Positions 491 to 25,069 of a stretch of 64,000 nt of DNA are shown here, piece after piece (the stretch's first letter is position 1; every line of letters begins with the position of its first letter). Origin of the DNA: a virus. Lineage: Duplodnaviria > Heunggongvirae > Uroviricota > Caudoviricetes. Position numbers and translations under genes: made by a program. The stretch is from IMG/VR virus record IMGVR_UViG_3300034104_004745, positions 64,001-128,000 of that record; one strand, 5' to 3'. The notes beneath the pieces were generated by a model that saw only the letters and a program-made list of their open reading frames with translations, was not told the DNA's origin and did not search any database.

Positions 491-1522
491 TTATATTAAA
501 TTATTTATTGTCTTAGGAATATATAAATCTACGATGTCGTGCATATTATGGGTACACCCGTATTTTTTATTTATTTTAACCAATTCTATTAAGAACTTAT
601 CAAATTCGGGGTGATTGTGTGACCAAATTTGTTTTAATCTAAATTCCCCTTCTGAATATGTACCCCAGTTGTCTATTTTATTAAAAAATATGTTTACGTT
701 GTTTTTAAAGATTTTCATTATCATTACATAAAAATCCCACATTTCCGTATAATTTGTGTCTTGAACAACAAATGACACATTTTTTTTATTCATGGGGATT
801 TTTGATATAAATTTTAAATTTTCAATCAGGGTTTCCCAATTACCACCTCGTCTAACCACCTCGTACGTTTCTTTTTTACTGGCGTCTACACTAATTTCAA
901 TGGTTTTTATTAAATGGTGTATATGGGATAATTTATCCCACATTTGCTTATTTAAAAGCAACCCGTTGGTGTGTAAGTGAATGTGATTTAGTCTTGGATA
1001 CTTATTAAGGTCAATATTAAATAAAAAATTTCTAAATGTTTTGGATGCAAATGGGTCAGATGTCCCTGAAAGGTATATTAGTTCAACACTGTCGCTGAAC
1101 TGAGTGATAACCTCGTTTAGTTTTGATTCAACAAAATCAATTTCGGAACCATTTGCCATTATCATTGAAGTCCTACATGTTGGGCAGGATAAATTACAAC
1201 TTCTGTCAAATGCGAAATTTAAGCTTTTGGGACCGTTTTTATATTTTTCTAAGTTAAAATCTTCTTTTTTAATAAATTTTGATGGTGGTCTCTTTGTTGA
1301 AATAAAACTAGATAGATATGGGCAAGCTGTTTTAGAACAATATTTATATGACCCATCTAAAATAGAATCTTGTACTTTTGTTAATTGATCTCCACCCCAA
1401 ACCTGACTTAATGAATTACCAACATTATTAGGTAGCCAGGTTGGGCAACAACTATGTGTACTATTTTTATGTATTTCCAAGTACATAAAAGGTGTGGGGC
1501 ATACATAATCATTCAACTTCAT
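491..1522 (-). CDS. Radical SAM protein with N-terminal twitch/SPASM-like domain
   Basis: CNLSCPTC (CxxxCxxC), N-terminal C..P....SCC..C..C, SGTSDPF in place of GGEP, HTNG, ISVD. Confidence 0.9.
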   Translation of the reverse strand: MKLNDYVCPTPFMYLEIHKNSTHSCCPTWLPNNVGNSLSQVWGGDQLTKVQDSILDGSYKYCSKTACPYLSSFISTKRPPSKFIKKEDFNLEKYKNGPKSLNFAFDRSCNLSCPTCRTSMIMANGSEIDFVESKLNEVITQFSDSVELIYLSGTSDPFASKTFRNFLFNIDLNKYPRLNHIHLHTNGLLLNKQMWDKLSHIHHLIKTIEISVDASKKETYEVVRRGGNWETLIENLKFISKIPMNKKNVSFVVQDTNYTEMWDFYVMIMKIFKNNVNIFFNKIDNWGTYSEGEFRLKQIWSHNHPEFDKFLIELVKINKKYGCTHNMHDIVDLYIPKTINNLI

Positions 1523-1526
1523 TGGG

Positions 1527-2174
1527 TTATATTAAATAAGCATGCGGTGATTCACCTTTATCAAGTCTAACTCTATTTTTATCGGCTAAAACAAATTTAT
1601 TATAAATCACGTCATTGAGTTCTACACCAACATATCTTAATATGTCTTTAACAACCGATTTGTTTCTATCCGTATAAATGTCTTCAAAATAAAATATTGG
1701 GTATCCATTTTCGGATAAGCCATGTAGTTTTTTAGACTCTTCGATTAATATTTTTTTTCTATATTCAATATCACTTTCCTCAATACCAGAAAAATCATAA
1801 TATTGTCTTTTATGCCAATCTCCCTTTGTACCTTTTATTGCATGGTATACAAAACTTTCACTTTGTAGAGTTTTATCTTTTCGGTCTAAAAGTATTATTT
1901 TTTCAAAATAATTGAAAAACCAATCCCAATACATTTCATCATTATTTAAAAAACCATTTGGTCGATGAACGTCGTTTAAAAATGTTTTAATGAAAACATT
2001 ATTTTTATTTTCATAAAAACTAGGTAAATAAACATTTCTATTTTTTAATTCGTATAGATATTGATTAAATGGCTCGCAGTGGCTGGTATAATTTAAAGAA
2101 TCTAAATGTTCTTTAATAAGGTAAAAAAGTGTTGTTGATCCGGTTCTTTCGCTACCTAATATTGCAATTCTCAT
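1527..2174 (-). CDS. PAPS-dependent sulfotransferase-like protein
   Basis: N-terminal ILGSERTGSTTL (5'-PSB loop), EPFN, LDRKD (3'-PB region), FEDI. Confidence 0.75.
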   Translation of the reverse strand: MRIAILGSERTGSTTLFYLIKEHLDSLNYTSHCEPFNQYLYELKNRNVYLPSFYENKNNVFIKTFLNDVHRPNGFLNNDEMYWDWFFNYFEKIILLDRKDKTLQSESFVYHAIKGTKGDWHKRQYYDFSGIEESDIEYRKKILIEESKKLHGLSENGYPIFYFEDIYTDRNKSVVKDILRYVGVELNDVIYNKFVLADKNRVRLDKGESPHAYLI

Positions 2175-2695
2175 ATAAGCTTGTTTTTATTTGGTTCCAT
2201 TCTGAATTTATGAATAAACATCGCAATTGACCATCTTTCCCTTTCGATTAATGGTGTTATTTGGTGAGGTATTTGTGATTGAAATATACAAACATTACCC
2301 ACTTTTTTATCAATGACTATTGGTTTATCATCTTCATCATAAATTATATAATCTCCACCAATAAAATCTTCATTTAAGATGATACCAACATTCCACTCTT
2401 TTATAGGATTTCCGGTGTCTATATGCTTACCAAATTCATCACCAACAGTGAAGTGATGTAAATTTAGTTTAATAGGTCTTAAAAAAATGTGTAACTTCAT
2501 CTCTTTTTCGAAAAAGTCACACATTCTTTTTATAATCCAGTCAACATCGGTCTTATATTCCAATGTGTAAAATTTATAATTAAAATTATCGAATTCACCC
2601 CATCTACCATTAGTACCTAATAATGGATATTTGTTTTTTAAATTTATGATAGTTTTACATTCATCTTCGGTAAATAAAATAGATTGAATTAACAT
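2171..2695 (-). CDS. 2OG-Fe(II) oxygenase
   Basis: HID...H(QITP)...R(WSIA) facial triad and 2OG-binding Arg; LNEDFIGGD. Confidence 0.85.
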   Translation of the reverse strand: MLIQSILFTEDECKTIINLKNKYPLLGTNGRWGEFDNFNYKFYTLEYKTDVDWIIKRMCDFFEKEMKLHIFLRPIKLNLHHFTVGDEFGKHIDTGNPIKEWNVGIILNEDFIGGDYIIYDEDDKPIVIDKKVGNVCIFQSQIPHQITPLIERERWSIAMFIHKFRMEPNKNKLI

Positions 2696-2722: not shown

Positions 2723-3253
2723 CTATATGATTTTTAATTTACCATTTTTTATTTGTGATTTTCTAAAAAAAACCAATATAATGTTTCTAATCCCTTCTTT
2801 TATTTCATAAAGCTCATGTTCAAATATTGATTCAAAAAAATAACAGTTACCAATAATTTTTTGAAAATTAAATATTTCGGTATTATTAGTAATGTTCTCA
2901 ATAATAAATTCTCCTCCCTCAAAATCATCATTTAATAATAAACCTAACCCATATAATCTGTTATGAATACTATCGTTGTGCCTATTAAATTTATCTCCCT
3001 TAACATATGTTTGTAAATAAAACTCTTTACTATCCGTATTTTCCCAATCAATAGAAATATTAAATTCTTCGTTTATCCACAATATAAATCTATCTAATAT
3101 CCACTTATCTTCAACGTCATTCATATTTTTATAAGTGTAACTTATACTTGACTTACGTATTTGATTTCCATCGATAGGTTTCAGTTCATACTTTTTTAAA
3201 ATCAAATCACACTCTTCTTTTGAAAAAAGTATCTTTTGTTTTGGTGTAGTCAT
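2723..3253 (-). CDS. 2OG-Fe(II) oxygenase (start probably M13 at 3253)
   Basis: HND...LNDDFEGGEF...HEL...R. The track start at 3289 overlaps the upstream gene. Confidence 0.85.
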   Translation of the reverse strand: MTTPKQKILFSKEECDLILKKYELKPIDGNQIRKSSISYTYKNMNDVEDKWILDRFILWINEEFNISIDWENTDSKEFYLQTYVKGDKFNRHNDSIHNRLYGLGLLLNDDFEGGEFIIENITNNTEIFNFQKIIGNCYFFESIFEHELYEIKEGIRNIILVFFRKSQIKNGKLKII

Positions 3254-3254
3254 A

Positions 3255-3986
3255 TTATATAATAGATTTAGTTCTTTTAAAAGCGCCATCTACGTATTTG
3301 TCAACAAATTCTATCAATTCTGGTGTTTTTGTTATCGCACAGTAATCTATTTTTGTTTGATTAACGTGTGATAATTTGAAATCAACATTAAGTTTTTCAG
3401 ACATATAATCTTCAAATTCCTCTATTCTATCAAAATGAAATTCCTTAACTTTTACTGTATCGTTTAATATCCAATTATATTGTGAAATAAATGTCAATAT
3501 ATGAAGTGAAAAACGATGAACAAATTTATTATCTTTTTTCAATTCTTCGGGAAATTCTAATTCATCAATTAATTTAAGAAAAAGTTTTTTTACTGTATCA
3601 TTATCTCCATACGCGTTAATGAAATCATTATAATTGTTTTTTATAAAATTAATTAAAAATTCATTGTTTTTATTTTTCATTTTATCTAACGTAAAAGAAT
3701 CTAATAACTCGGAAGATTGTGCAATAAAAAATTTCCACGCTGAAATAAATCTATCTGTTGAATTTCTTAGTATACAAACGTAATCTAAATTATCCCCAAA
3801 TGTTCTAATTAAAGATTGTACTTTTGTATGAATATGTTTATTTTTTTGCCCATCCTCCTTCATTGTATTTTCCCATAAAATATTGGTATATTTTAAATCG
3901 AAATTGTATTCCTTACAGGTAAATTCTACTGACCATGATGCGTTTTTTGGTATTGGGATGAACGCAATTTTATCATTTATGACCAT
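3255..3986 (-). CDS. Sulfotransferase family 2-like protein
   Basis: FIPIPKNASWS (PKxAS 5'-PSB) and LRNSTDRFISAW (RxPxxRxxS-like 3'-PB). Confidence 0.8.
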   Translation of the reverse strand: MVINDKIAFIPIPKNASWSVEFTCKEYNFDLKYTNILWENTMKEDGQKNKHIHTKVQSLIRTFGDNLDYVCILRNSTDRFISAWKFFIAQSSELLDSFTLDKMKNKNNEFLINFIKNNYNDFINAYGDNDTVKKLFLKLIDELEFPEELKKDNKFVHRFSLHILTFISQYNWILNDTVKVKEFHFDRIEEFEDYMSEKLNVDFKLSHVNQTKIDYCAITKTPELIEFVDKYVDGAFKRTKSII

Positions 3987-3989
3987 TTA

Positions 3990-4553
3990 TTATATAAAAC
4001 TTTTAGTATTTTTAACAACATCTTTTATTTGGAATCCTAATGTTAAAGTTATTCTAGGTTTTTCACCTATTACGGGGGTACTGCCATGTTTAACTTTACC
4101 CGCAACACATCTCCACACCATCCTTTCCTTTAATTCATTTATTTTACCGTTATATATGGAATGTCCTCCTTGTTCGGGATAAGATAGTATAATATTATAT
4201 CTGACATGTGTATACCCATCCACATTCATATCAGTATGTGTGTGAATTGATCCGCCCTCTCTATTAATACCAATGGCATCTTCAAAATTTGGGTCTAATA
4301 TCCAATCGTTAATTTTTTCTACTTCAATTACCCTATCCTTTATCTTTTTTACTATATCTAATGGGGAATTTGGTATCCTATTTAATACACCGATTTGTCT
4401 AGAACCGTATGGTGCATTTATGGTATGACTATTTGTTGTGTTTATTTCAAATAGATGTGAATTAGAATTTGTCCAAAATAAAAGAATTTCTTGTTCTTCG
4501 TTTGTTATAAATTCCTCATAACCATAGGTGTCATTCAACTCTATGTGTTTCAT
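3990..4553 (-). CDS. 2OG-Fe(II) oxygenase
   Basis: HTD...HGSTP...RITL motifs. Confidence 0.85.
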   Translation of the reverse strand: MKHIELNDTYGYEEFITNEEQEILLFWTNSNSHLFEINTTNSHTINAPYGSRQIGVLNRIPNSPLDIVKKIKDRVIEVEKINDWILDPNFEDAIGINREGGSIHTHTDMNVDGYTHVRYNIILSYPEQGGHSIYNGKINELKERMVWRCVAGKVKHGSTPVIGEKPRITLTLGFQIKDVVKNTKSFI

Positions 4554-4569: not shown

Positions 4570-4692
4570 TTATTGACTCGTAATGTCAGTATAAATAAGA
4601 GTTGCAACCTCTTGCATTATGGTTGCAACATTTGTATTAGTTGTACCACTTGTTGGTACAACTTCTGATGATAAAATTTTTGGTTTTGACAT
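4570..4692 (-). CDS. Small 40-aa Ser/Thr-rich ORF (MSKPKILSSEVVPTSGTTNTNVATIMQEVATLIYTDITSQ)
   Basis: ATG at 4692 after an A-rich leader fills the gap between the 511-aa gene and the oxygenase. The longer 81-aa version in the track overlaps the upstream gene. Confidence 0.5.
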   Translation of the reverse strand: MSKPKILSSEVVPTSGTTNTNVATIMQEVATLIYTDITSQ

Positions 4693-4714: not shown

Positions 4715-6250
4715 TTATTCTTTAGGAACTCTTTCTCCTCCGCCGCCACAATAAGAGCAACTGTTACACGACCACCAACTACATCCACCACCAGAACACC
4801 AGCTGTAACACGCATTATGTTGTATAAATGCTAAACCTAAAGTTTCATCTAAAACCGGTAGGAATACATCACTTTGTTCAACATTTATATCAAATATCAT
4901 TCTATTTACATAAACCACCTCTAAATTTGTTATTTTAGATTTAGTTAACGTATCATTAATATAATCATAAAACACAATGGAATCATCTATTCTAAATGTA
5001 TTTGTTAATGCATATGTGGTACGAAGTGTATCAAACTCTTCAATAATCATGTTACTACCAGGTAAATCTTCATATGTTAAACCATTTTCTAAAGTGACTT
5101 TAATCATTAAACATTCTTTTTGAGCTCCACTTATTTCTTCAACTATTGTTGATGAAGTTGTAAATACTGTAAGGTCGTCTGTAAAATTATTACTGTTCAC
5201 TCCAGGTATAAAATTTGGGATGCCGTCGATTAATTCATCGTCAAGGGGTACCCACGGAAGTAGTAATGTTTTTAATGTACTATTAATCGTTATTTGACTT
5301 GGTAACACTAAATCACCTTCACCATTTAAAATTTTTGTATCATTGTCTAAAATGTAAATCTCACCAAGGGTATTTGGTGATTTAGTCATCCATAGTACTC
5401 TAGATGATTGTGACATCAAACCATTTGAATCATACTCTGTTGGCCATTCATCATGTTTAACTTGTGAAGTCATTATATATGACCCCAAATGTAAACAACT
5501 AAGTGTTCCTCCATATAATATATCTAAACTTCTAATTACACCCATTTTTTCATTCACAATATTATCAGAATGAGTGTGATACTCTTCCATGTATTCCGAT
5601 TCAATTAATGATTCTTTCAATAATTGTAAATTTTCTAATGATGTGATTTTATACAATTTCGGATATGTAACAAGATTTCTATTAGGATATCTAGGTTTAA
5701 CAATGTAATTTGGTGTATCTCCATTTGTAATATGTAAATCGGTTAATTGGTCAATATTTAAATAGGTATCAACATTAGATGAATAGAATATGTTTGGTGA
5801 ATATGATTTATTTTGAATCAATCTATGAAAATTAACTTTATCTTTCGTATATTCTTCATCCACAACCGCTGTGGTATCATATGATGTTCTTATGATTAAT
5901 GTGTTATCACCGTCCTCAATATATGGAACCGTTATTGAATTATGTGCCACTTGGTGAAAGGTAAATGAACCATCTAAATCACCTATAATTTCTTCCATTT
6001 TATCTTTGATGGTAACATCATTAAGATTCGTACTAAATGCACCATCTTTTTCACTATAAATGATATTTCCCTCAGTTACAATAAGATGTAAATTATTTAT
6101 GGAATTATCTATCAAAAATTGCCTAAAAGAGTCCCAATCTAAATTTGGTACGATTTTATTATGTACATCAACATTCGTATTTGTTTCAATTATTCTTAGA
6201 TTTCCGTTTGAATCTTTTAATAGATCCGTACCAATTATTACTGCTTTCAT
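4715..6250 (-). CDS. Circularly permuted ATP-grasp + Hint (intein-like) domain + C-terminal six-Cys peptide fusion
   Basis: N-terminal GTD..D.NG..IIETN, then DK, IVKP, EEY, R. Hint-like region ILDNDTKIL...IKVTLENG...IFDINVE...FIQHN, followed by ACYSWCSGGGCSWWSCNSCSYCGGGGERVPKE. Confidence 0.7.
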   Translation of the reverse strand: MKAVIIGTDLLKDSNGNLRIIETNTNVDVHNKIVPNLDWDSFRQFLIDNSINNLHLIVTEGNIIYSEKDGAFSTNLNDVTIKDKMEEIIGDLDGSFTFHQVAHNSITVPYIEDGDNTLIIRTSYDTTAVVDEEYTKDKVNFHRLIQNKSYSPNIFYSSNVDTYLNIDQLTDLHITNGDTPNYIVKPRYPNRNLVTYPKLYKITSLENLQLLKESLIESEYMEEYHTHSDNIVNEKMGVIRSLDILYGGTLSCLHLGSYIMTSQVKHDEWPTEYDSNGLMSQSSRVLWMTKSPNTLGEIYILDNDTKILNGEGDLVLPSQITINSTLKTLLLPWVPLDDELIDGIPNFIPGVNSNNFTDDLTVFTTSSTIVEEISGAQKECLMIKVTLENGLTYEDLPGSNMIIEEFDTLRTTYALTNTFRIDDSIVFYDYINDTLTKSKITNLEVVYVNRMIFDINVEQSDVFLPVLDETLGLAFIQHNACYSWCSGGGCSWWSCNSCSYCGGGGERVPKE

Positions 6251-6287: not shown

Positions 6288-6929
6288 TTAAATTAACGAT
6301 GAGGTCTTCTTAACGAATTCCAAACCAATATTTCCCGCTAAAACTATTCTATCAATTGTCGAATTTGGGGCATTTTTAGGAGAATGGGGTACATCTGCTT
6401 GCATAATTATTAATTCGTCTTCCTCAGGTTTAACCCAATATTCGACACCTTTTTTATTTTTAAAGTACAATACCCCATCATCACCATTCATAACATCAGG
6501 CATTTGAATATAATAAACAAAGGTAAAGTCGGGGTGGAACGTCTTTAATTTTTTATTAATATCCGTATGGACGTGGTATTTGTCGACATTATTTTTCCAA
6601 AATTCTGTTTGCACTGGTTTTTTATGTCTAATTCGATTTACCCAAGTTTCTAGGTTAACTTTATTAAAAGGGATGTTATCATCCTCGTATATTTTTTTAC
6701 ACTCATTAATTCCTATTTGTGTAATTTCGTCCATTTTATTTGATATATTCAATTCACCTGATGAATTTATAGAGTCCGTCCAATATATAACACCAAATCC
6801 ATCATGTTTAGATTCCGGTTGGGACTTTATTATTTTGTTAGCCTCTTCCAATAAAGAATCTTTGTATTTTACCAAATTTAATTTTTTTTTCCATATAAAT
6901 GTATTTTCATCAAAGTATATTTTTTTCAT
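6288..6929 (-). CDS. Putative 2OG-Fe(II) oxygenase (TIGR02466-like type)
   Basis: HVHTD, FTFVYYIQMP, G.L.F, PHSP, RIVLAGN. Confidence 0.75.
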   Translation of the reverse strand: MKKIYFDENTFIWKKKLNLVKYKDSLLEEANKIIKSQPESKHDGFGVIYWTDSINSSGELNISNKMDEITQIGINECKKIYEDDNIPFNKVNLETWVNRIRHKKPVQTEFWKNNVDKYHVHTDINKKLKTFHPDFTFVYYIQMPDVMNGDDGVLYFKNKKGVEYWVKPEEDELIIMQADVPHSPKNAPNSTIDRIVLAGNIGLEFVKKTSSLI

Positions 6930-7534: not shown

Positions 7535-7756
7535 TTATAAAATATTCTTATTTTTTAACCCATACTTAATCCACCTATACCATACCCTTTCATGAATATA
7601 ATATTGAATTGGTTTATATACTAATTCAGCAACACCAAATGCTGCGCCAACCTTAATCGAACCACTTATCCACCACATTATAATAAACCCAATTAGGGTG
7701 CTTATAACACGGTACGAAATGGTTTTTGCAATGTGTCTTTTACGTTCTACTACCAT
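7535..7756 (-). CDS. DUF2061-like small membrane protein
   Basis: RHIAKTISYR...two hydrophobic segments...YYIHERVW. Confidence 0.75.
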   Translation of the reverse strand: MVVERKRHIAKTISYRVISTLIGFIIMWWISGSIKVGAAFGVAELVYKPIQYYIHERVWYRWIKYGLKNKNIL

Positions 7757-8102
7757 CTGAATTTATTAATTTATTTCTTATTGCAGTTCCACTTATTTCA
7801 GCAATTTCTGTGGGTGGTTCGTGATAAATAACCTCGTATCCAACCCCTCTACCATAATTAACCGATTCAATATCTGGGATAATAGATACGAGAATCTTAT
7901 CAAAATTATTGTTGAAGAAAGGTTCTTGTATTAACATCTGAAAAACTTCTTGTGCCGTCTTTGGGTTGTTTTCGTCAACTTCAACATCTCTAATAGCAAC
8001 CCATACATTTTTACCTTGGTTTAATTGTTGATTAATCAACCATTCGTGACCTTTGTGCCAGTTCTGCCATCTACCGATGTATAGTGCGTATTTTTTACTC
8101 AT
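7740..8102 (-). CDS. HIGH-family nucleotidyltransferase (NadM/cytidylyltransferase-like)
   Basis: IGRWQNWHKGH and C-terminal ISGTAIR. Confidence 0.8.
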   Translation of the reverse strand: MSKKYALYIGRWQNWHKGHEWLINQQLNQGKNVWVAIRDVEVDENNPKTAQEVFQMLIQEPFFNNNFDKILVSIIPDIESVNYGRGVGYEVIYHEPPTEIAEISGTAIRNKLINSDGSRT

Positions 8103-8533
8103 AATGTTATGTTTTTTAATAATTTATAATATGAATCTGTTTCATTATCTGTTGTTGTGTCAATATCAATAAAGTTTTCTGTTGGTGCTTCATATTCAGT
8201 AACGTGAAATGATTCACGACCTCTAATTTCAGAAGTGTGAACATATATTTCAATAACAGAATTTTGTGATTTAAAACGATCTCTTTGATCTTTATACGGT
8301 GCAACCAATGAAACAACAACGTCGAATCCTTTGCTATTCATAAATTGAGCAATATATTGAGCTCTTTCGACATTCGCACGTCTACCATACTCACTATAGT
8401 CCTTATTATTGAATGCGTTTCGTAAATCGTCACCATCAATGTGGATGACATTGTCTTTAGGGAAGTGTTCCACTAAATATTTTGCTAATGTGGTCTTACC
8501 AGCACCTGGTTGACCTGTAAACCAGTATATCAT
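8099..8533 (-). CDS. cysC: Adenylyl-sulfate (APS) kinase (start probably M10 at 8533)
   Basis: WFTGQPGAGKTT, IDGDDLR, R.ANVER, VVSLVAPY...RDR, YEAP. Confidence 0.9.
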   Translation of the reverse strand: MIYWFTGQPGAGKTTLAKYLVEHFPKDNVIHIDGDDLRNAFNNKDYSEYGRRANVERAQYIAQFMNSKGFDVVVSLVAPYKDQRDRFKSQNSVIEIYVHTSEIRGRESFHVTEYEAPTENFIDIDTTTDNETDSYYKLLKNITL

Positions 8534-8579
8534 ACTATTAATATAAGGAATTATTTTCAAATAATCAAATAATCAAATA

Positions 8580-8696
8580 TCAATGATTATATGTAAATGG
8601 GTCGCGTTTTTTTAATTCTTCCATCTTTTTTTTATGGATTCTTTTACGTTTATACTCTTTAATTTTGGACATTAACCAATTTATTAGTTTTTTCAT
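8580..8696 (-). CDS. Small basic 38-aa protein MKKLINWLMSKIKEYKRKRIHKKKMEELKKRDPFTYNH
   Basis: Not in the track. ATG at 8696, TGA at 8580-8582; fills the intergenic gap. Confidence 0.6.
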   Translation of the reverse strand: MKKLINWLMSKIKEYKRKRIHKKKMEELKKRDPFTYNH

Positions 8697-12278: not shown

Positions 12279-13544
12279 CTATATCATTTTTTCATTTATG
12301 AATCCGTGTATCTTTAATCCTATCTCATTTTCAAATTTTTCCAATCTTAAAGTATCTAAAGTTTCGTTATATTTCTTAAACTCTCGATACAAATCAAATC
12401 TATTTAAATCATCAACATCACTAATACTAAAAAGATAGATAGAATCTAATAATTCTATTATCTCTTTATTAATATCGTCACTAACACCTAACGATTTTAA
12501 CTCTTGATTAAAGGTTAATAAACGAGTTTTAAACCTATCTTTAATTTCATTAGATATCCATTTACAACTTAAATAATCAGGACCATATATTGGATTTATC
12601 GCCAACATTCTTCTTCGTGAATAATCTATATTTTTTTCAATAAGACCTTGGTTAATTAATTCAAGAATCATATCAAATGTATGTAGATAATTTAGTGCCC
12701 CATAAGAAAAAGTATAAAAAATATGTGAATTAGTTAAAAATTCTGATACTTTTTTAGCATTTGTGATAAAAGTTTCAGTTTTAAATCCAGATCTTATATA
12801 CTCGCCTACACTACCTAAACCGTCTAAACTAGGAAATAATGTGATGTTATTAAAATGAGACCAATAATCAAAAATATGTTTATTTTTAAACGTTATTTTT
12901 GATAAATTGGTGCTATATCTTAAATAAACTTGTTTGTTTCTTTTTATTATCTCATCTAATATTTCATAATGATGCTCACTTATTAATGGTTCGCCACCAG
13001 CAAAATATATTTCATCCACATATTCATAATGATCACCTAATTGTTTTAAAAAATCATTTGTATCATCTAAAGTTATTATTGCTTGGTTACTATGTGACAT
13101 ATTCATACTAACAGCATCATTAAACCAAGATGAACTAAACCCATGATAACACATCCTACATTTAAAATTACATAGATTAGTGATTCTAATATCCCACAAA
13201 TGAAACTTTGTTTCGTCATAATCAACATAGTCAACACATTGTGGATAATCTCTATTTAATCTTTGTCTATATGATTCCGAGTTTAATTTCTCATTATTGA
13301 TACAATTAGAACATTGTTTAACAAAATCACCAGATATCATTTTACTCTTAATATCTTTAGATTTATCTGATTTATAAATCTCATTTAATGTTGATTTATT
13401 AATATTGCCAAGAGGATCATTTAAATCCCAATTACAACACGGAAGAACATTACCATTAGGATGAACATAGACACTCATCCAAGGCGCAACACAAAAAGAT
13501 TTTGAATCAACTAGTAAAGATTTCTTCTCATTTTCATTCATCAC
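12279..13544 (-). CDS. N-terminal twitch radical SAM protein
   Basis: FCVAPW..PNG..PCC, C..C, CNFKCRMC, AGGEP, YSTN. Confidence 0.92.
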   Translation of the reverse strand: MMNENEKKSLLVDSKSFCVAPWMSVYVHPNGNVLPCCNWDLNDPLGNINKSTLNEIYKSDKSKDIKSKMISGDFVKQCSNCINNEKLNSESYRQRLNRDYPQCVDYVDYDETKFHLWDIRITNLCNFKCRMCYHGFSSSWFNDAVSMNMSHSNQAIITLDDTNDFLKQLGDHYEYVDEIYFAGGEPLISEHHYEILDEIIKRNKQVYLRYSTNLSKITFKNKHIFDYWSHFNNITLFPSLDGLGSVGEYIRSGFKTETFITNAKKVSEFLTNSHIFYTFSYGALNYLHTFDMILELINQGLIEKNIDYSRRRMLAINPIYGPDYLSCKWISNEIKDRFKTRLLTFNQELKSLGVSDDINKEIIELLDSIYLFSISDVDDLNRFDLYREFKKYNETLDTLRLEKFENEIGLKIHGFINEKMI

Positions 13545-14749
13545 ATAAAGTAGTTTACTAAAGTTGGGTAATTTGTTTTAACGATATCGATAGTCGATTC
13601 ACTTCTATAACCATCTAATATCGTGAATTTAGTGTATTCTCTTCTTAGTTCATCATCAGTTGGTTGTTTACTGTACATAAATTCAATCAACGCATTGATA
13701 TCGTTTGTTTGTTCCTTAAAATCAAATGTTTCCCAGTGTGATTTTATTCTATCTTTTTCTTCTTTAGGTAACATATAGATTGACATATGTGGTGGGTAGT
13801 GAACAATGTTTAACCAAAAATCAAATAGAGGCGTGTTATCTCTCATCCATTGGATAGTTTTTGGTAACTCGTACGCATTTACCCAAGAAGTTGTATGTGT
13901 GTAGGTAAACCCTAAATTCCTATACTTCTTTCTTAGTTCGTGGTACTTAAATAAGTTTTCTTTTACCTCACCCCACACCGCATTTTTTCTTAGGTACTCA
14001 AACGTACCTTCGGTTCCGTCAATACTTAACCCAATACCAACTGCTTTAAATCCTTCACAGATTTTAATCATTAGATCTTCGTTAAGAATGGTGCCGTTGG
14101 TGGACATATTTAACAATATATTTTTACTATGTCCTTCGTTAATCATATGTGTTAAGACTCTTTCCCAGGTGTTCGAATAGAAAGGTTCCCCACCAACAAT
14201 TTCAAGCCTTCTAACGTGAGGTAACCAAGTATCCATACTAGAAATAAATTCACTTGTTTGGTGACCTGGTTGCCCATGTTTTAACCCGAAATAACGAATA
14301 CCAAATTTTTCCCATTCTGATTCTGGAATATCGTTTACTTCCTTCAACCAACTAGTACTATGACTAGGTGAACAACTTCTACATTTTAAATTACAAGAAT
14401 TATTTAAAATTATCTGGTAGTCTTCAGGATATTCAGGGACTTTACCATAATCGACTGTTGTTCCATTGTTTTTTAAAATTTCAATATATATTTGCCTTTT
14501 GCTTTTATAACCATTCTCTTCATCCTTCCAACACGTTTCACATCCTTTTGGTTTTTCGCCATTTAAAAATTGTGTTCTTAAATTTTCCATGTACTGACTA
14601 TGAAATATGTCTTTAACTGTATCGTTTTGAACATAAAAAAAAGAACCGTCTGGTTTTACTACATAATCTTTATTTATACAACAAGGTTTTACGCTTCCAT
14701 ATGGATCATTTGAAAACCCGACCCAAGGTAGTGGACATATATGTTCCAT
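13541..14749 (-). CDS. N-terminal twitch radical SAM protein (start probably M10 at 14749)
   Basis: ICPLPW...KPCC, CETC, CNLKCRSC, VGGEP, STNG. Confidence 0.92.
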   Translation of the reverse strand: MEHICPLPWVGFSNDPYGSVKPCCINKDYVVKPDGSFFYVQNDTVKDIFHSQYMENLRTQFLNGEKPKGCETCWKDEENGYKSKRQIYIEILKNNGTTVDYGKVPEYPEDYQIILNNSCNLKCRSCSPSHSTSWLKEVNDIPESEWEKFGIRYFGLKHGQPGHQTSEFISSMDTWLPHVRRLEIVGGEPFYSNTWERVLTHMINEGHSKNILLNMSTNGTILNEDLMIKICEGFKAVGIGLSIDGTEGTFEYLRKNAVWGEVKENLFKYHELRKKYRNLGFTYTHTTSWVNAYELPKTIQWMRDNTPLFDFWLNIVHYPPHMSIYMLPKEEKDRIKSHWETFDFKEQTNDINALIEFMYSKQPTDDELRREYTKFTILDGYRSESTIDIVKTNYPTLVNYFM

Positions 14750-14750
14750 A

Positions 14751-15944
14751 TTACTTAAAATATTTTTTCCATTCATTTAAGTAGTCTGTTATTTTTACAT
14801 TTCTAGATGTATCCAATAAATTAACAAACCCATAAAATTTTTCTTCATCATTATTATTTTTTGGCTTAAACAATTCAATTTTTAATCTTTCAACTTCATC
14901 TGGCCTCATGTATTTGATATTAGTAATAATTTCAGTTTTCATATCATCTGGAATAATATTAACCTGTTGAAATGAAGGATAATGTACATAGTTGTGTGAA
15001 ATAACTAAATCATAATCTAATGTGAATTTTTTAAAATTATCAATATTAAAAACATTATACGCACTAACTGTTTGGCAAACTTCTAAATTGAAAATATCTT
15101 TATATTCGACGATTTTTTTAAAATTTTCAAGTATTTGTCCCCAACTAGATCCATGTCTTATATAATCGTTTCTTTCTTCTAAATCATCTATTGATAAGTG
15201 AATTCTAACTTTCCTAAATTTCTTCCATATCTCTATGAATTTATCAGGTACTGCTGTCATATTGATACTATAATGTAAATCAACGTTTCCACTAGTACCA
15301 TCCGAAATAAATTTCTCTAAGAAATACCCGTGTTCCCTAATTAAGGTAGGTTCTCCCCCATTTATCCATATTTCTTTTAGCTTATTACACTTAGTGTATA
15401 GTTCGTCATAGAATGAGTGGTCTCTAAACCATTCAGTTCGTATATCACATTTGAAATAATCGTTTTCAAATTGAGTACCTTTAAATGAATGTATATCTTC
15501 ATTCCATCTATTTGATGAAAAAGGATTACAAGTAACACATTTTAAATTACAAACAGTACCAAGTCTCAATTCAACATAGTTGTAATTCACATCTTTAAGT
15601 GAGCCGTCTTCGTTAGTGTTAGTAAAACATTTCTCAATAAACTCTTCAAATTTTTTATTTGATTCGATTCTTTTTGATTCAACACCACCTTGTTCGTACT
15701 TGTAACATTTTTGACAAACGGATGGGAATTCCCCATTCATCATTTGTTTTCTAATATTATTAAACTTACTAGTATTTGTTATATCATTCAATTTATCTTT
15801 ACCCAAAAAAAGATGTTTACCATCAGGGTGAGCTGCGGTTGAAATACTATTAGTCATATCGGTTATACAACAAGGTGTAACCGTTCCAATTGGGTGTGTA
15901 GCTAAATGTATCCAAGGTAAAACACAAAATGATTTACTTTCCAT
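14751..15944 (-). CDS. N-terminal twitch radical SAM protein
   Basis: FCVLPW...TPCC, CQKC, CNLKCVTC, NGGEP. Confidence 0.92.
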   Translation of the reverse strand: MESKSFCVLPWIHLATHPIGTVTPCCITDMTNSISTAAHPDGKHLFLGKDKLNDITNTSKFNNIRKQMMNGEFPSVCQKCYKYEQGGVESKRIESNKKFEEFIEKCFTNTNEDGSLKDVNYNYVELRLGTVCNLKCVTCNPFSSNRWNEDIHSFKGTQFENDYFKCDIRTEWFRDHSFYDELYTKCNKLKEIWINGGEPTLIREHGYFLEKFISDGTSGNVDLHYSINMTAVPDKFIEIWKKFRKVRIHLSIDDLEERNDYIRHGSSWGQILENFKKIVEYKDIFNLEVCQTVSAYNVFNIDNFKKFTLDYDLVISHNYVHYPSFQQVNIIPDDMKTEIITNIKYMRPDEVERLKIELFKPKNNNDEEKFYGFVNLLDTSRNVKITDYLNEWKKYFK

Positions 15945-17296
15945 TAAATTAATATTTTACTATTATTTTGCCACCATTGAAGTACTCGTGGGTTTTGACT
16001 GAATATCTCATCAATCACCCCCACATTGTTTCTCCATAAATCAACAGCGTTTAAATTTTTTATTCCTCTTTGTAGCCCTTCTTGCCAATTAGGATACTTC
16101 TCTTGAAAAGTCTGTCTATTTTTTAAATCCTCAAGACACGTTATCCAATAATCATATTTATGATTCTGTTGGATTTTAGGTCTAATATAATCTAAAATAT
16201 CATCAATTACTTCGTTATAAATTTCTCTAGGTAGTACCTGTGGACACATAATGATACTACTATCAAACGCAAATGTGGTTTTAATTAATGTGTGAACATT
16301 TAACTCTAAGGACAAGTCAAATAATTCCTTTAAACTAAAAAGACCTGGTGTTGTGATTGTTAAATCAAACGCAATACCGTAATCACCATATCTTTGATTT
16401 AAGAACATAAAGTCCTTAAAGTTTTTGATCCATTCATCCCATCTTATACCGTGACGAACATATTCAACTATCTTACCTGTACCATCAATTGATGCGCATA
16501 TTTGTACTTGTTTGAAATGTGGTAAGAGAGTTCTTAAATCATAGTCTTTATAAGTTGTTCTTGAGAAATTAGAATTATATCTAACCCACACATTTTTTGC
16601 CCCACCTGTTTTAACTAGGTAATCCATAATCTCCCAGTGAATGTCCCACATTAATGGTTCGCCACCAACCCAATAAATCTCCTCAATTGTACCATTCTTA
16701 ACCGCTTCCCATAGTTCCTTTTCAGCAACGTCTTTTTGAAATGATTCAATAATTGGTTTATTTTGTTTTTGTGCCCAGTAATCGGTATTACCCTGTGCAT
16801 CATAGTGGCCCATAGATCTTCTTTCTGCTTCCCAAGAAGATGATAATTGATCCCCACACATTCTACATTTGAAATTACATAAGTTTTTAATTCGATAATC
16901 AAATGAAATAGGTTTCATCTCAGTATGACCGTCATCATTTGTCTTTTCAAATGCTTCCTCAATCTTGTGTGGAAATAGTGTTTTATTAAAGTAGTCACGG
17001 TATATTGAAATGTTCAATAGTTTATCGTTACAAACAGCACACTGAGGTATTTCTTTACCTTCCATTAAATCTTTTCTGATACCTTTCATATAATCAGAAT
17101 TCCAATGGTCGTCTAATGTTCCTGGATTATATTGTGAACCATTATCAGCACTTTCAGAATCAAGGTATTGTGTTGCCCAAGATGCTTTCTCCCTACTCGC
17201 ACAACAAAGTCTTCTTTCACTTTGTGGTGAAAGATAGGTGTGTGACCAAGGAGCCATACAAAATGTTTTATTTCCCTCAGATGGTTTTAATTTCAT
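15944..17296 (-). CDS. N-terminal twitch radical SAM protein
   Basis: FCMAPW...RLCC, CAVC, CNFKCRMC, VGGEP, NSN. Confidence 0.92.
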   Translation of the reverse strand: MKLKPSEGNKTFCMAPWSHTYLSPQSERRLCCASREKASWATQYLDSESADNGSQYNPGTLDDHWNSDYMKGIRKDLMEGKEIPQCAVCNDKLLNISIYRDYFNKTLFPHKIEEAFEKTNDDGHTEMKPISFDYRIKNLCNFKCRMCGDQLSSSWEAERRSMGHYDAQGNTDYWAQKQNKPIIESFQKDVAEKELWEAVKNGTIEEIYWVGGEPLMWDIHWEIMDYLVKTGGAKNVWVRYNSNFSRTTYKDYDLRTLLPHFKQVQICASIDGTGKIVEYVRHGIRWDEWIKNFKDFMFLNQRYGDYGIAFDLTITTPGLFSLKELFDLSLELNVHTLIKTTFAFDSSIIMCPQVLPREIYNEVIDDILDYIRPKIQQNHKYDYWITCLEDLKNRQTFQEKYPNWQEGLQRGIKNLNAVDLWRNNVGVIDEIFSQNPRVLQWWQNNSKILI

Positions 17297-18533
17297 CTAT
17301 ATTTTCTTTTTCAAATACCTCAATAAGATAAGGATATAATGACCTCCAATCTGTGTTTCGTCTTTGGTCGATTTTATCTAAATAATCCCTCAATCTTTTA
17401 AGTTGTGTTTTATCAACATCGTGAGTTGTCACTTGTTTCTCAAAACCATATAAGTAAAGTTTTCTGTGATCTTCTTCCGGTACTGCGGAAAGTAAATCTT
17501 CAAAAAATGATTTAGCGTGATGCCCTAAATTTTCAGGATTCATAAACGTTGGTCTAGCAACTGTGTTCCAACCAAAATCAACTTTCTTTATTTTATTCCA
17601 CTCGATTATCTTTCTGTAGAATTCACCCATCGTAGGTAAAGTAACAGGTGTAATGGTTGAGTGTACTGATATCTTTACAAGTGGTGATGTTAAAAGAGTA
17701 TTAAAATTAGTTTCCCATTCAATTAAATCCATACCAAATCTAGCAAATTCCGCTTGTGGCCCCCAACAATCCATACTGCAAACAATTTCAAAAGATTCTA
17801 ATTTTTTTTGTTCAATTAGTTTTGAAATTCTTTCTATTTTTTCTTTGAATTTACTTGGGTTGTGTTTGAGATTACTGAATATTTTAAAATTTGTGTTTGG
17901 ATGTTCATGTCTTTCAAAAAATTCTAAACATTCCTCAAATTCTGGTTGATACATAGGTTCACCACCTAAAATTTGGAAATGATATAAATCTCTAGAATTT
18001 TTTTCCATCCAAACCCAGAAATCCGCTTTAAGTTTGTCATAATCATCCCTACCGTGGAAACCATCCAAATCGTATTCACTCTCAAGTGGCCCAAATTTTT
18101 CAATCTCATTTTGAATTAGTGAGCTAAAAAAAGGTGAACAATAAACACATTTTTGATTACAAACATTAGTAAAATACACCTCCAATATTCTTGGTGTTAC
18201 ACTTAATTCTTTTGGATTAAGTTTTAGCTCTTTAGGTGATAATAAACTATCATTAATGTATGCTGTTCTTTCACTAATTCCTCCAGAGTCTTCTATTTTT
18301 TTACAATATTCACAACCATTACCTGGCCATTGTCCATCTAACATTTTTTGTCTATCCGATAATTTACCAGGATGGTTATGGAAGTCTTGCATGTGTTGAG
18401 TAACATCCCATCCCTTACATCTATGACAACTTGACGATGTTCCAACAGACAAAAATAAAGTGCTCCATGTCCATTTAAATTGACAAGCAGTTTGTGTTTT
18501 AATTGGAAATATATCTTCTATATTATGTGGCAT
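17277..18533 (-). CDS. N-terminal twitch radical SAM protein (C..KW/SCH subtype)
   Basis: ACQFKW...SSCHRC, CEYC, CNQKCVYC, LGGEP. Confidence 0.92.
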   Translation of the reverse strand: MPHNIEDIFPIKTQTACQFKWTWSTLFLSVGTSSSCHRCKGWDVTQHMQDFHNHPGKLSDRQKMLDGQWPGNGCEYCKKIEDSGGISERTAYINDSLLSPKELKLNPKELSVTPRILEVYFTNVCNQKCVYCSPFFSSLIQNEIEKFGPLESEYDLDGFHGRDDYDKLKADFWVWMEKNSRDLYHFQILGGEPMYQPEFEECLEFFERHEHPNTNFKIFSNLKHNPSKFKEKIERISKLIEQKKLESFEIVCSMDCWGPQAEFARFGMDLIEWETNFNTLLTSPLVKISVHSTITPVTLPTMGEFYRKIIEWNKIKKVDFGWNTVARPTFMNPENLGHHAKSFFEDLLSAVPEEDHRKLYLYGFEKQVTTHDVDKTQLKRLRDYLDKIDQRRNTDWRSLYPYLIEVFEKENIDEIKTI

Positions 18534-20101: not shown

Positions 20102-20104
20102 ATT

Positions 20105-20686
20105 TTAAATTTTATGTATAAAGTTACAGTTTCCTGTTAGATCAAAGCTTTTATTGTGAATGTACTTTTCAAAAGTATGTTCAGCTATTATTTCATTGTC
20201 TTTCTCAATTAAGAGATATTCTAATATAAATGAAAAATAGTTTAAATTAAAGCCGTTTTGTGGGAAATTACCTGAGCCAAATATTATGTGAGATTCATTA
20301 TTTCTCGCTAATTTCTCAATGATTTCATGACTTATTAGTACCTCATCATTTATTGATAAAGTAATATTATTATCGATCTTATTTATTTCTAAAACAGTTA
20401 TTTTATTGGGTTCTAGAGAAAAATTAGCTTGTAGATACTTTGAATCTTTAGTGTTATCAGTTAATATCAATGTAACATAATTTTGATCAAAATCAACACC
20501 AAAATATGATGGTAATTTAGAAAATAATGTAGATCTTTTTTCTATCTTTTCCTCAGTTTTAAAGATCATTTTAAATTTAAAATTACCATCGTAATCAAAG
20601 ATTTTATTAGCGGGAAAATCAATAAAATTCGCGACTAAAATATCGGGCCACATTAGCCAAGGTTCACCTTTATTTATTTTTAACAT
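20105..20686 (-). CDS. Hypothetical protein, possible LamG/concanavalin-like beta-sandwich (start probably M31 at 20686)
   Basis: Beta-rich pattern ITLSINDEV...IIFGSG..P....F resembling the LamG inserts of the neighbouring GT7 genes. Confidence 0.5.
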   Translation of the reverse strand: MLKINKGEPWLMWPDILVANFIDFPANKIFDYDGNFKFKMIFKTEEKIEKRSTLFSKLPSYFGVDFDQNYVTLILTDNTKDSKYLQANFSLEPNKITVLEINKIDNNITLSINDEVLISHEIIEKLARNNESHIIFGSGNFPQNGFNLNYFSFILEYLLIEKDNEIIAEHTFEKYIHNKSFDLTGNCNFIHKI

Positions 20687-24870: not shown

Positions 24871-25069
24871 TAATTGTTGGGTCTTTTGGTTTAACGGTAT
24901 TATGCCATTCTGATAAATAATATTGGATTCTATCGCTCCACTCCTGTTTATCAATTTCTTCAAACCAAATGGTTAACGCATCTAATGAATTTGCGATTTT
25001 TTCTAACGCTTTTACTTTTCTTTCTTCTAGTTTTTGAAGTTGTTCTTCTTTTTCTACTTTTGTGCTCAT
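24863..25069 (-). CDS. Hypothetical protein
   Basis: 68-aa ORF tightly coupled to both neighbours. Confidence 0.65.
   Translation of the reverse strand: MSTKVEKEEQLQKLEERKVKALEKIANSLDALTIWFEEIDKQEWSDRIQYYLSEWHNTVKPKDPTING

What the first reader, a model, noticed from the sequence alone, without database searches (positions are those of the whole stretch)
4718..4813. The released 32-mer looks like a radical-SAM RiPP core
Seen: six Cys (C2, C6, C11, C16, C19, C22) interleaved with aromatic-X-X motifs (YSW, WCS, WWS, WSC, YCG) and Gly linkers, in a region encoding eight twitch-domain radical SAM enzymes and four 2OG oxygenases. Established: SPASM/twitch radical SAM enzymes install thioethers (sacti/ranthipeptides, e.g. 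the six-Cys SCIFF peptides) and three-residue aromatic cyclophanes (triceptides). Inference: the ATP-grasp/Hint part may act as a large leader and the peptide as the core. Alternatively the tail is a simple metal-binding or disulfide knot. I see no obvious RiPP recognition element in the radical SAM proteins.
Basis: inference. Interest (0 to 1): 0.72.

Follow-up and report, generated by a model that had tools for sequence, protein, structure and literature searches.

The report
Self-released six-cysteine phage peptide cargo
The 32-residue cysteine-rich tail is real and is the fast-changing cargo of an undescribed phage protein that joins an ATP-using ligase to a self-cutting Hint domain; seven of the eight nearby radical SAM enzymes belong to a separate sugar module, and only one short radical SAM enzyme is tied to it, optionally.

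Summary
Observation confirmed. Window 4718-4813 (minus strand) encodes the last 32 residues of a 511-aa protein, with Cys at 2, 6, 11, 16, 19 and 22.

The protein has three parts: an ATP-grasp-like ligase, a Hint domain that keeps only the C-terminal His-Asn cutting site, and a variable six-Cys tail ending in one Lys. I found about 150 distinct tails in uncultured phages and none in 185,579 cellular genomes. Six Cys and the terminal Lys are kept; the rest changes about 7 times faster than the Hint domain. In some relatives the same peptide is followed by an S74-like self-cleaving domain or a second Hint.

The radical-SAM RiPP reading is only partly supported.
- The seven-gene N-twitch radical SAM array travels with glycosyltransferases (FAM within 10 kb in 1/42 loci) and occurs in a complete phage genome that lacks the family.
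- The short radical SAM at 491-1522 is specific to the family (33/33 loci) but optional (14/31). One complete genome has the family without it.
- The constant neighbours are 2OG oxygenases, a sulfotransferase-like gene and a 40-aa partner predicted to bind the ligase domain.

No family model or paper describes this layout. The scan has met the same family before on other DNA (e1-1872743, e1-5409916, e1-5392496, e1-5392540).

The parts
4718..4813 (-). 32-residue six-Cys cargo peptide (P0001:480-511), with a single Lys at position 31
   Evidence: Translation. The Cys are invariant and the other positions variable across homologues. The non-Cys positions change about 7 times faster than the Hint domain.
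4814..5353 (-). One-sided Hint domain (residues 300-479). Ile stands at intein position 1 and His478-Asn479 are invariant at the C-terminal end.
   Evidence: AF2 model with pLDDT about 90 over this part. Foldseek against PDB: E 1.8e-7 to BIL2 6y75 and 2.4e-7 to hedgehog 1at0. VIA-align: Z 15.8, rmsd 2.3, 139 aligned to 4o1r; Z 15.4 to 6tmm; Z 15.1 to 1at0. Invariant columns.
5381..6250 (-). ATP-grasp-like (circularly permuted type) amide-ligase domain, residues 1-290
   Evidence: All but three of the non-Hint structural matches are ATP-grasp ligases: 3k1t Z 7.0, YgiC 7uka 6.5, glutathione/homoglutathione synthetases 5.5-6.2, GspS 5.8, TTLL11 5.0. Language-model neighbours are ATP-grasp families at 0.91-0.93. 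No Pfam hit. The evidence is moderate.
4570..4692 (-). 40-aa partner protein, encoded 22 nt after the stop of P0001
   Evidence: A 37-52-aa homologue follows the gene directly in all clades. The complex model places it on the ligase domain: score 0.80, best of 3 controls 0.01.
6288..6929 (-). 2OG-Fe(II) oxygenase-like gene immediately upstream
   Evidence: PF13640 at E 5.1e-5. An orthologue lies within 10 kb in 24/31 family loci and within 3 kb in 49/59.
3990..4553 (-). 187-aa protein, weakly 2OG-oxygenase-like
   Evidence: PF13640 at E 0.074 only. Orthologues occur in some family loci.
3255..3986 (-). Sulfotransferase-like protein (243 aa)
   Evidence: Sulfotransfer_1 at E 0.0098. A profile search against PDB finds heparan sulfate 2-O-sulfotransferase at E 0.013. 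An orthologue lies within 10 kb in 23/31 family loci. The assignment is weak.
2723..3289 (-). 2OG-Fe(II) oxygenase
   Evidence: PF13640 at E 1.3e-4. This type or its paralogue occurs in 25/31 family loci.
2171..2695 (-). 2OG-Fe(II) oxygenase
   Evidence: PF13640 at E 1.1e-8. Co-occurrence as for the gene above.
1527..2174 (-). 215-aa protein, faintly sulfotransferase-like
   Evidence: Sulfotransfer_3 at E 0.13 only. An orthologue occurs in 22/31 family loci.
491..1522 (-). Short (343-aa) radical SAM enzyme with N-terminal Cys cluster; an optional member of the module
   Evidence: PF04055 at E 5.2e-11. NF033640 at E 9e-17, below the cut-off. Conserved N-terminal Cys plus a CxxxCxxC motif. The family lies within 10 kb in 33/33 loci anchored on this enzyme. 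The enzyme is present in 14/31 family-anchored loci.

Best explanation
The 32-mer is the variable cargo of a phage-only, self-processing protein family. The layout is an ATP-grasp-like amide ligase, a Hint domain and a Cys-rich cargo that ends in one Lys.

Shown here:
- the Hint fold;
- loss of the N-terminal nucleophile (Ile300);
- an invariant His478-Asn479 directly before the cargo;
- six fixed Cys among fast-changing residues;
- a conserved terminal Lys;
- a universally adjacent 40-aa protein that is modelled onto the ligase domain.

Inferred: cyclisation of Asn479 cuts the N479-A480 bond. This frees the peptide, or at least its alpha-amine. The six Cys then hold the peptide in a compact knot, by disulfides once outside the cell, by a metal, or by enzyme-made links.

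More speculative: the ligase, together with its small partner, uses the freed peptide in an ATP-dependent amide bond. The amine would be the new N-terminus or the single Lys. The result would be cyclisation or attachment to a target.

The likely tailoring enzymes are those that always travel with the gene: 2OG oxygenases and a sulfotransferase-like protein with a nearby PAPS module. The short radical SAM at 491-1522 is an optional extra tailoring enzyme in about half of the phages, this one included. The seven-gene radical SAM array is not part of the system.
For: Hint fold and junction.
- Foldseek E 1.8e-7 and 2.4e-7. VIA-align Z 15-16 at rmsd 2.3-2.5 over 139-146 residues.
- H478 and N479 are invariant. 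Position 1 of the Hint aligns to Ile300.

The cargo behaves as a module.
- Of 151 distinct tails, 132 have six Cys, 146 have Lys in the last two residues and 120 have exactly one Lys.
- In close pairs the non-Cys tail positions have pN 0.166 against 0.024 in the adjacent Hint domain.
- The same peptide is followed in some relatives by an S74-like domain starting at Ser-Asp-x3-Lys. All 12 members match PF13884, best E 6.4e-4, below the cut-off.
- In other relatives it is followed by a true second Hint domain, PF14890 at E 1.4e-15.
- Across 243 clusters of the ligase domain, that domain is at the N-terminus in nearly all listed hits. The cargo ranges from Lys-containing stubs of 4-8 residues to Cys-rich modules of up to about 140 residues.

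Ligase domain.
- All but three of the non-Hint structural matches are ATP-grasp amidoligases, Z 5-7. Language-model neighbours are ATP-grasp families.

Partner protein.
- The complex score is 0.80 and the best of 3 controls is 0.01. That mark was reached by 58 of 80 solved complexes and by 2 of 110 mismatched pairs. These counts hold only roughly, because my own alignments were used.
- The runs agree in at least 93% of contacts, and the partner's pLDDT is at least 86.

Neighbours.
- Any 2OG oxygenase lies within 10 kb in 28/31 loci; the sulfotransferase-like gene in 23/31; the short radical SAM in 14/31; an N-twitch radical SAM in 4/31.
- Reverse tests: short radical SAM to family 33/33; N-twitch array to family 1/42.
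Against: - No cleavage, modification or ligation has been observed; everything rests on sequence and models.
- The tail has no confident predicted fold: pLDDT 24-50 in the full model and 52 when folded alone.
- The residue after Asn is often Pro (29 of 151 tails). From my own knowledge this may slow Asn cyclisation in engineered inteins.
- The ATP-grasp assignment rests on Z 5-7 and no HMM hit.
- Tail dN/dS stays below 1, and synonymous change is also raised (pS 0.325 against 0.125). Recombination rather than positive selection may therefore drive the variability.
- All family loci come from related large aquatic phages, so gene linkage is partly inherited synteny.
- The sulfotransferase calls are weak (E 0.01-0.13).
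Confidence: 0.5

Rival explanations
1. One reading: the released 32-mer is a radical-SAM RiPP core. Its Cys and aromatic residues are cross-linked (thioethers or three-residue cyclophanes) by the neighbouring twitch-type radical SAM enzymes, with the ligase-Hint part acting as a giant leader.
For: The short radical SAM at 491-1522 lies 3.2 kb downstream on the same strand. Its relatives were found only next to family genes: 33/33 loci with full flanks, and 62/80 overall, where the misses are contigs cut off upstream. In many of those loci it sits directly after the family gene. Its weak HMM neighbours include SPASM/twitch peptide maturases. The tail is rich in Cys (21-22%) and aromatics (19%).
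Against: - Only 14/31 family loci carry the short radical SAM.
- A complete 288-kb genome has the family without it. The search method was checked on a positive control.
- Tails with and without it share the same scaffolds and Cys number.
- The seven-gene array is linked to MT/GT2/GT7 genes in 24/42 loci and to the family in 1/42. It is present in a complete genome that lacks the family.
- No RiPP precursor model matches the tail at E up to 10.
- No recognition element was seen in the radical SAM proteins.
Confidence: 0.2
2. The tail is never released. It is a small C-terminal metal-binding or disulfide knuckle of the full-length enzyme, and the His-Asn is kept for structural reasons.
For: Six Cys at fixed spacing are typical of Zn or Fe-S knuckles. 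The S74-like domain in some relatives is a trimerisation chaperone of fibres, which could point to a structural end-piece. No cleavage data exist.
Against: His-Asn is invariant at the exact end of a Hint fold in clades only 30% identical, while the next residue varies freely. The cargo can be swapped for modules of very different size, or be almost absent. It is bracketed by a second self-cleaving module in two architectures. A structural knuckle would not be expected to change 7 times faster than its neighbour.
Confidence: 0.12
3. The family is a phage version of a polymorphic toxin or effector. The Hint domain releases an unmodified, hypervariable Cys-knot peptide that acts on host or competitor targets, and the small downstream gene is an immunity-like or chaperone factor. 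The ligase and neighbouring enzymes are unrelated to the peptide.
For: The layout is a constant N-terminal part, then Hint, then a polymorphic C-terminal cargo, as in PT-HINT toxins (PMC3482391). A small gene always follows. Raised synonymous and non-synonymous change in the tail fits cassette exchange.
Against: The downstream protein is conserved across clades rather than co-varying with the cargo, and it is modelled on the ligase domain, not on the tail. There is no secretion or trafficking domain. The ligase domain keeps its polar invariant residues. 2OG oxygenases lie within 3 kb in 53/59 loci.
Confidence: 0.15

Closest known systems
Pre-toxin HINT (PT-HINT, PF07591) modules of bacterial polymorphic toxins (Zhang et al. 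2012, PMC3482391)
   Same: A Hint autopeptidase sits just before a polymorphic C-terminal cargo, and a constant N-terminal part carries many alternative C-termini.
   Different: - The cargo is a 25-36-residue Cys-rich peptide, not a toxin domain.
- The N-terminal part is an ATP-grasp-like enzyme, not a secretion or filament module.
- The Hint here matches no Pfam model.
- The family is found only in phages.
- The downstream small protein is conserved rather than polymorphic.
BIL domains of the Tetrahymena BUBL locus (PDB 6y75/6tmm; PMC8616854) and bacterial intein-like domains (2lwy)
   Same: These are among the best structural matches. In both cases Hint domains flank a small module and process it without a downstream nucleophile. 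The relatives with Hint, peptide, then second Hint repeat that layout.
   Different: In BUBL the flanked module is a ubiquitin-like domain that is conjugated through a thioester. Here the first Hint lacks the N-terminal Cys, so it can only cut at its C-terminal end, and this window's protein has no second Hint.
Radical-SAM RiPPs with Cys-rich cores (sactipeptides, ranthipeptides including SCIFF, triceptides)
   Same: A short Cys- and aromatic-rich peptide, with a twitch-type radical SAM enzyme linked in about half of the loci.
   Different: There is no short leader-core precursor and no match to precursor models. The radical SAM is optional, and release is by a fused Hint rather than by a protease.
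Cyanophage tandem-dioxygenase neighbourhoods (Iyer et al. 2010, PMC2938197; Iyer et al. 2021, PMC7824862)
   Same: Arrays of 2OG dioxygenases with halogenase, sulfotransferase/PAPS and carbamoyltransferase genes in large phages, proposed to modify a peptide or a surface polymer. The same gene types surround this family.
   Different: Those papers name no substrate and do not describe a ligase-Hint-peptide gene. I found no relative of the family in 50,697 deposited phage records.
Graspetides (ATP-grasp-modified RiPPs such as microviridins)
   Same: An ATP-grasp enzyme is paired with a ribosomal peptide that carries a Lys.
   Different: In graspetides the enzyme and precursor are separate genes, and the core needs Asp/Glu with Ser/Thr/Lys for side-chain rings. 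Here the enzyme is fused to the peptide, acidic residues are rare (Asp and Glu together 2-4%), and the ligase is of the glutathione-synthetase-like permuted type.

Membership tests
Radical-SAM-modified RiPP (sacti-/ranthipeptide, SCIFF, triceptide) | Dedicated radical SAM maturase that co-occurs with the precursor | tested here: inconclusive
   The short radical SAM is present in 14/31 family loci, while the family is present in 33/33 loci anchored on that enzyme. One complete genome has the family without it. The seven-gene array is linked in only 1/42 loci.
Radical-SAM-modified RiPP (sacti-/ranthipeptide, SCIFF, triceptide) | Precursor matches a known precursor family model | tested here: not met
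   No NCBIfam or Pfam family matches five tails from different clades, even at E up to 10.
Radical-SAM-modified RiPP (sacti-/ranthipeptide, SCIFF, triceptide) | Short precursor with a leader peptide that a protease removes | tested here: not met
   The peptide is the C-terminus of a 511-aa two-domain protein and follows a Hint His-Asn junction.
Radical-SAM-modified RiPP (sacti-/ranthipeptide, SCIFF, triceptide) | Thioether or C-C cross-links in the mature peptide | not testable with these tools
   This needs mass spectrometry of the expressed peptide.
Hint / intein superfamily | Hint fold | tested here: met
   Z 15.8 (rmsd 2.3, 139 aligned) to 4o1r and Z 15.1-15.4 to 1at0, 6tmm and 2lwy. Foldseek E 1.8e-7.
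Hint / intein superfamily | C-terminal His-Asn for Asn cyclisation | tested here: met
   H478 and N479 are invariant in 52/52 aligned sequences and present in nearly all loci.
Intein (protein splicing) | Cys/Ser/Thr at position 1 and a nucleophile at +1 | tested here: not met
   Position 1 aligns to Ile300. The +1 residue is Ala, Gly or Pro in 99 of 151 tails and Ser in 28.
PT-HINT polymorphic toxin | Hint placed just before a polymorphic C-terminal cargo | tested here: met
PT-HINT polymorphic toxin | PF07591 match, N-terminal trafficking domain, polymorphic immunity gene | tested here: not met
   P0001 has no Pfam hit. The N-terminal domain is ATP-grasp-like. The downstream small protein is conserved across clades.
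ATP-grasp amidoligase | ATP-grasp fold with conserved nucleotide- and Mg-binding residues | tested here: inconclusive
   All but three of the non-Hint structural matches are ATP-grasp ligases, but at only Z 5-7. Language-model neighbours are ATP-grasp families at 0.91-0.93. D9, E22, N24, K185, R240 and D243 are invariant. There is no HMM hit.
Peptidase_S74 intramolecular chaperone (relatives of about 582 aa only) | PF13884 match starting at the self-cleaving Ser | tested here: inconclusive
   All 12 members match from profile position 1 at the Ser of Ser-Asp-x3-Lys, but the best E is 6.4e-4 and the scores lie below the 22-bit cut-off.
Graspetide | Separate ATP-grasp enzyme and a precursor with acid/hydroxyl/Lys ring partners | tested here: not met
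   The enzyme is fused to the peptide. The tails have one Lys and few Asp or Glu.

The most novel reading that the evidence does not exclude
A leaderless, protease-free way for viruses to make tailored mini-peptides. One polypeptide carries the peptide, the knife (a one-sided Hint) and a ligase. The ligase, with a 40-aa subunit, then cyclises the freed six-Cys peptide or attaches it through its new N-terminus or its single Lys. Dioxygenases, a sulfotransferase and, in some phages, a dedicated short N-twitch radical SAM decorate the peptide. The cargo is polymorphic because it meets a variable host or rival target.
Probability: 0.27. Interest if true: 0.9.

Novelty: new variant of a known kind. 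Interest (0 to 1): 0.74.

Why it matters
Large aquatic phages carry puzzling islands of dioxygenases, halogenases, sulfotransferases and radical SAM enzymes whose substrate has never been named (PMC2938197, PMC7824862). This family offers a concrete, gene-encoded candidate substrate for part of that island.

It also separates the island into two modules. One is a peptide module: ligase-Hint-cargo, partner protein, oxygenases, a sulfotransferase-like gene and sometimes a short radical SAM. The other is a sugar module: glycosyltransferases with the N-twitch radical SAM array.

If the peptide is cut out and ligated as proposed, this would be a new self-contained route to small cross-linked peptides. 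It would also be a natural source of about 150 or more six-Cys scaffolds. The proposal can be tested with a single expression construct.

Tried and rejected
- Pfam, PHROGs and NCBIfam on P0001 and on the tails gave nothing.
- megablast and tblastn against 50,697 phage records gave no match; records near the window may be masked.
- A scan of 185,579 cellular genomes found no relative.
- Folding the tail alone with a 24-row alignment gave pLDDT 52.5 and no secondary structure. Nothing can be said about a knot fold.
- An alignment of radical SAM paralogues was too divergent to seed a collection scan.
- Pairwise BLAST of the S74-like domain against the window's own fibre S74 gave E 0.33. A profile search of it against PDB gave nothing. 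Only the per-member Pfam scan gave a consistent sub-threshold signal.
- The test for positive selection gave tail pN/pS 0.51 in close pairs and never above 1, so 'diversifying selection' is not shown. Only faster change is shown.
- The test for genomes without any radical SAM failed. FAM-bearing records usually hold PF04055 or N-twitch genes somewhere: 4 of the 5 FAM records scanned for PF04055, and both FAM records scanned for NF033640, including one complete genome.
- Co-variation of Cys number with radical SAM presence was not seen. Tails have six Cys in both groups.
- Literature searches for ATP-grasp plus Hint plus Cys-rich phage peptide, for Hint-processed RiPPs, and for twitch radical SAM in phages found no description of this layout.
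- I did not try docking a radical SAM enzyme with the peptide. The single complex job went to the small partner, where the answer was open.
Full report
**1.

Window 4715-6250 (minus strand) encodes a 511-aa protein, P0001. Its last 32 residues (nt 4718-4813) follow Gln-His-Asn. They carry Cys at positions 2, 6, 11, 16, 19 and 22, spaced C-x3-C-x4-C-x4-C-x2-C-x2-C. Trp or Tyr stands next to most Cys, Gly runs link them, and there is one Lys at position 31.

- seven N-terminal-twitch radical SAM genes at 12279-22052 (NCBIfam NF033640, E about 1e-93 for the two tested);
- a shorter radical SAM at 491-1522;
- 2OG oxygenases at 2171-2695, 2723-3289 and 6288-6929, plus a weak one at 3990-4553.

Earlier notes of this scan call the genome an uncultured freshwater T4-like phage. 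The window also holds a fibre with an S74 chaperone, virion proteins and a sigma factor.

**2. The protein**

No Pfam, PHROG or NCBIfam model matches it. An AlphaFold2 model built on 52 homologues is confident for residues 1-480 (mean pLDDT 83) and not for the tail.

Residues 297-480 are a Hint domain.
- Foldseek gives E 1.8e-7 to the Tetrahymena BIL2 domain and 2.4e-7 to the hedgehog autoprocessing domain.
- VIA-align gives Z 15.8 (rmsd 2.3, 139 aligned) to the NpuDnaB intein, and Z 15.1-15.4 to BIL2, a Clostridium BIL domain and hedgehog.
- Intein position 1 aligns to Ile300, so no N-terminal thioester can form. His478 and Asn479 are invariant. The domain can therefore cut only at its own C-terminal end, directly before the 32-mer.

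Residues 1-290 most resemble ATP-grasp amide ligases of the glutathione-synthetase / glutathionylspermidine-synthetase type, at Z 5.0-7.0. A language-model search of this part gives ATP-grasp families at 0.91-0.93. Invariant polar residues (D9, E22, N24, K185, R240, D243) suggest an active enzyme. I treat this assignment as moderate.

**3. The family and its cargo**

The protein database holds 184 relatives. IMG/VR has 142 confirmed loci. No relative was found in 185,579 cellular genomes or in 50,697 deposited phage records.

Among 151 distinct tails of the same architecture:
- length is 25-36 residues;
- 132 have exactly six Cys;
- 146 have a Lys in the last two residues, and 120 have exactly one Lys;
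- the residue after Asn is Ala, Gly, Pro or Ser in 127;
- Cys follows at +2 in 117.

Cys spacing differs between clades; the three commonest patterns are 1-4-3-4-2, 3-4-4-2-2 and 4-6-5-2-4.

In close pairs (Hint-domain pS below 0.3, 37 pairs), the non-Cys tail codons have pN 0.166 and pS 0.325. The adjacent Hint domain has pN 0.024 and pS 0.125. Amino-acid change is thus about 7 times faster. dN/dS stays below 1, and the raised synonymous rate fits cassette exchange as well as selection.

**4. The peptide is bracketed by self-cleaving modules in relatives**

Proteins of about 582 aa continue after the last Cys with Asp-Gln-Lys. A domain then begins Ser-Asp-x3-Lys. All 12 members match Peptidase_S74 from its first profile position, though below the cut-off (best E 6.4e-4).

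Proteins of about 650 aa continue with a genuine second Hint domain that begins with Cys (PF14890, E 1.4e-15). It ends His-Asn followed by a short Lys-Lys tail.

In all three layouts the mature product would be the Cys core with a Lys near its C-terminus.

A search with the ligase domain alone finds 243 clusters at 50% identity. In nearly all listed hits that domain is at the N-terminus. The cargo after His-Asn ranges from Lys-containing stubs of 4-8 residues to Cys-rich modules of up to about 140 residues. This is the logic of polymorphic toxins, in which a Hint domain releases a variable C-terminal part (PMC3482391). The layout Hint, small module, second Hint recalls the Tetrahymena BUBL locus (PMC8616854).

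**5. The test of the radical-SAM idea**

I anchored loci on three different genes and compared ORFs with phmmer.

(a) Family-anchored loci, 31 with at least 9 kb on both sides:

| Neighbour within 10 kb | Loci |
|---|---|
| any 2OG oxygenase | 28 |
| orthologue of 6288-6929 | 24 |
| sulfotransferase-like orthologue of 3255-3986 | 23 |
| short radical SAM | 14 |
| N-twitch radical SAM | 4 |

Within 3 kb, oxygenases occur in 53/59 loci and any radical SAM in 12/59.

(b) Loci anchored on the short radical SAM. The family lies within 10 kb in 33/33 loci with full flanks. Overall it is 62/80, and the misses are contigs cut off upstream. The enzyme often lies directly after the family gene, in clades with different tail scaffolds and gene orders.

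(c) Loci anchored on an N-twitch array member. The family is present in 1/42 loci. A methyltransferase-GT2-GT7-GT7 block is present in 24/42. This enzyme has at least 599 relatives in IMG/VR, against 142 for the family.

Whole records:
- A complete 424-kb genome has the array but no family member.
- A complete 288-kb genome has the family with a standard six-Cys tail and no orthologue of the short radical SAM (positive control). Its two N-twitch genes lie 61 and 166 kb away.
- Tails with and without the short radical SAM share scaffolds and Cys number.
- No RiPP precursor model matches the tail.

Conclusion. Seven of the eight radical SAM genes belong to a sugar-type module, as earlier notes of this scan also judged. 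The eighth is a family-specific but dispensable accessory. Whether it acts on the peptide is open.

**6. A constant partner**

A 37-52-aa ORF follows the family gene directly in every clade. It has a short strand, a Ser/Thr-rich turn and an amphipathic helix. In the window it lies at 4570-4692.

A complex model places it on the ligase domain, touching residues 8-23, 129-150 and 229-264 and part of the Hint domain.
- The score is 0.80 and the best of 3 controls is 0.01.
- That mark was reached by 58 of 80 solved complexes and by 2 of 110 mismatched pairs. These counts hold only roughly, because my own alignments were used.
- The runs agree in at least 93% of contacts, and the partner's pLDDT is at least 86.

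This supports binding; it does not show it.

**7. Most likely mechanism**

Shown: the fold, the one-sided catalytic set, the fixed Cys and Lys, the polymorphic cargo, and the gene linkage.

Inferred: Asn479 cyclises and frees the peptide. The Cys form a compact knot. The ligase with its partner uses the new amine or the Lys in an ATP-dependent amide bond. The oxygenases and the sulfotransferase-like enzyme, with the nearby APS-kinase module, tailor the peptide, much as Iyer et al. proposed for dioxygenase-sulfotransferase neighbourhoods (PMC2938197). The short radical SAM adds something in about half of the phages.

I put 0.5 on the core of this: a released polymorphic Cys cargo with radical SAM chemistry at most accessory.

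**8. Novelty**

Four literature searches found no description of a ligase-Hint-Cys-peptide protein. The two Aravind-group papers on phage dioxygenase islands do not mention one.

The scan itself has met the family on other genomes, with similar readings (e1-1872743, e1-5409916, e1-5392496, e1-5392540).
- the asymmetric radical SAM linkage;
- the separation from the N-twitch array;
- the S74-like and second-Hint architectures;
- the range of cargos;
- the modelled partner complex.

I class it as a new variant of a known kind, namely Hint-released polymorphic C-terminal cargo. There is a real chance that it is a new peptide-making system.

Noticed in passing
L001:12813-14357 (and L002): In the relatives that carry a second Hint domain, a flavin-dependent Trp-halogenase gene (PF04820) lies one gene after the family gene, next to a Trp-rich peptide. 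It may be a further tailoring enzyme.
   Followed up: no
L037:3178-5094: One relative has only seven residues and no Cys core between the first His-Asn and the Cys that starts a second Hint domain. The cargo can therefore be nearly absent.
   Followed up: partly
P0124, P0132, P0179, P0211, P0219, P0241, P0261: In these distant members the ligase-Hint protein ends 4-8 residues after His-Asn (or Gln-Tyr-Ser/Asn), and the stub still contains a Lys. The Lys-bearing end may be the essential part and the Cys module the payload.
   Followed up: partly
window 12279-27382: The seven-gene N-twitch radical SAM array keeps a fixed upstream block (methyltransferase, GT2, two GT7-LamG enzymes) in 24 of 42 related loci. 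A conserved 223-aa ORF (20105-20776) sits inside the array in 17 of them. This enzyme type has at least 599 relatives in IMG/VR.
   Followed up: partly
window 7535-8696: An APS kinase, a 120-aa nucleotidyltransferase-like protein, a DUF2061 protein and a 38-aa ORF form a block that is 60-87% identical across loci whose family proteins are only 32-64% identical. It is far more conserved than its neighbours.
   Followed up: no
G010:C1:21449-22513 and G009:C1:14062-15480: Two records with N-twitch arrays hold family-like frames of 686 and 629 aa. In the first, only residues 1-355 of the family profile match, so the C-terminal half may have yet another architecture.
   Followed up: no
window 491-1522 and L003, L007, L110-L112, L131-L137: The short radical SAM keeps five invariant N-terminal Cys before its CxxxCxxC motif, a miniature of the N-twitch layout. 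It is duplicated in several loci.
   Followed up: partly
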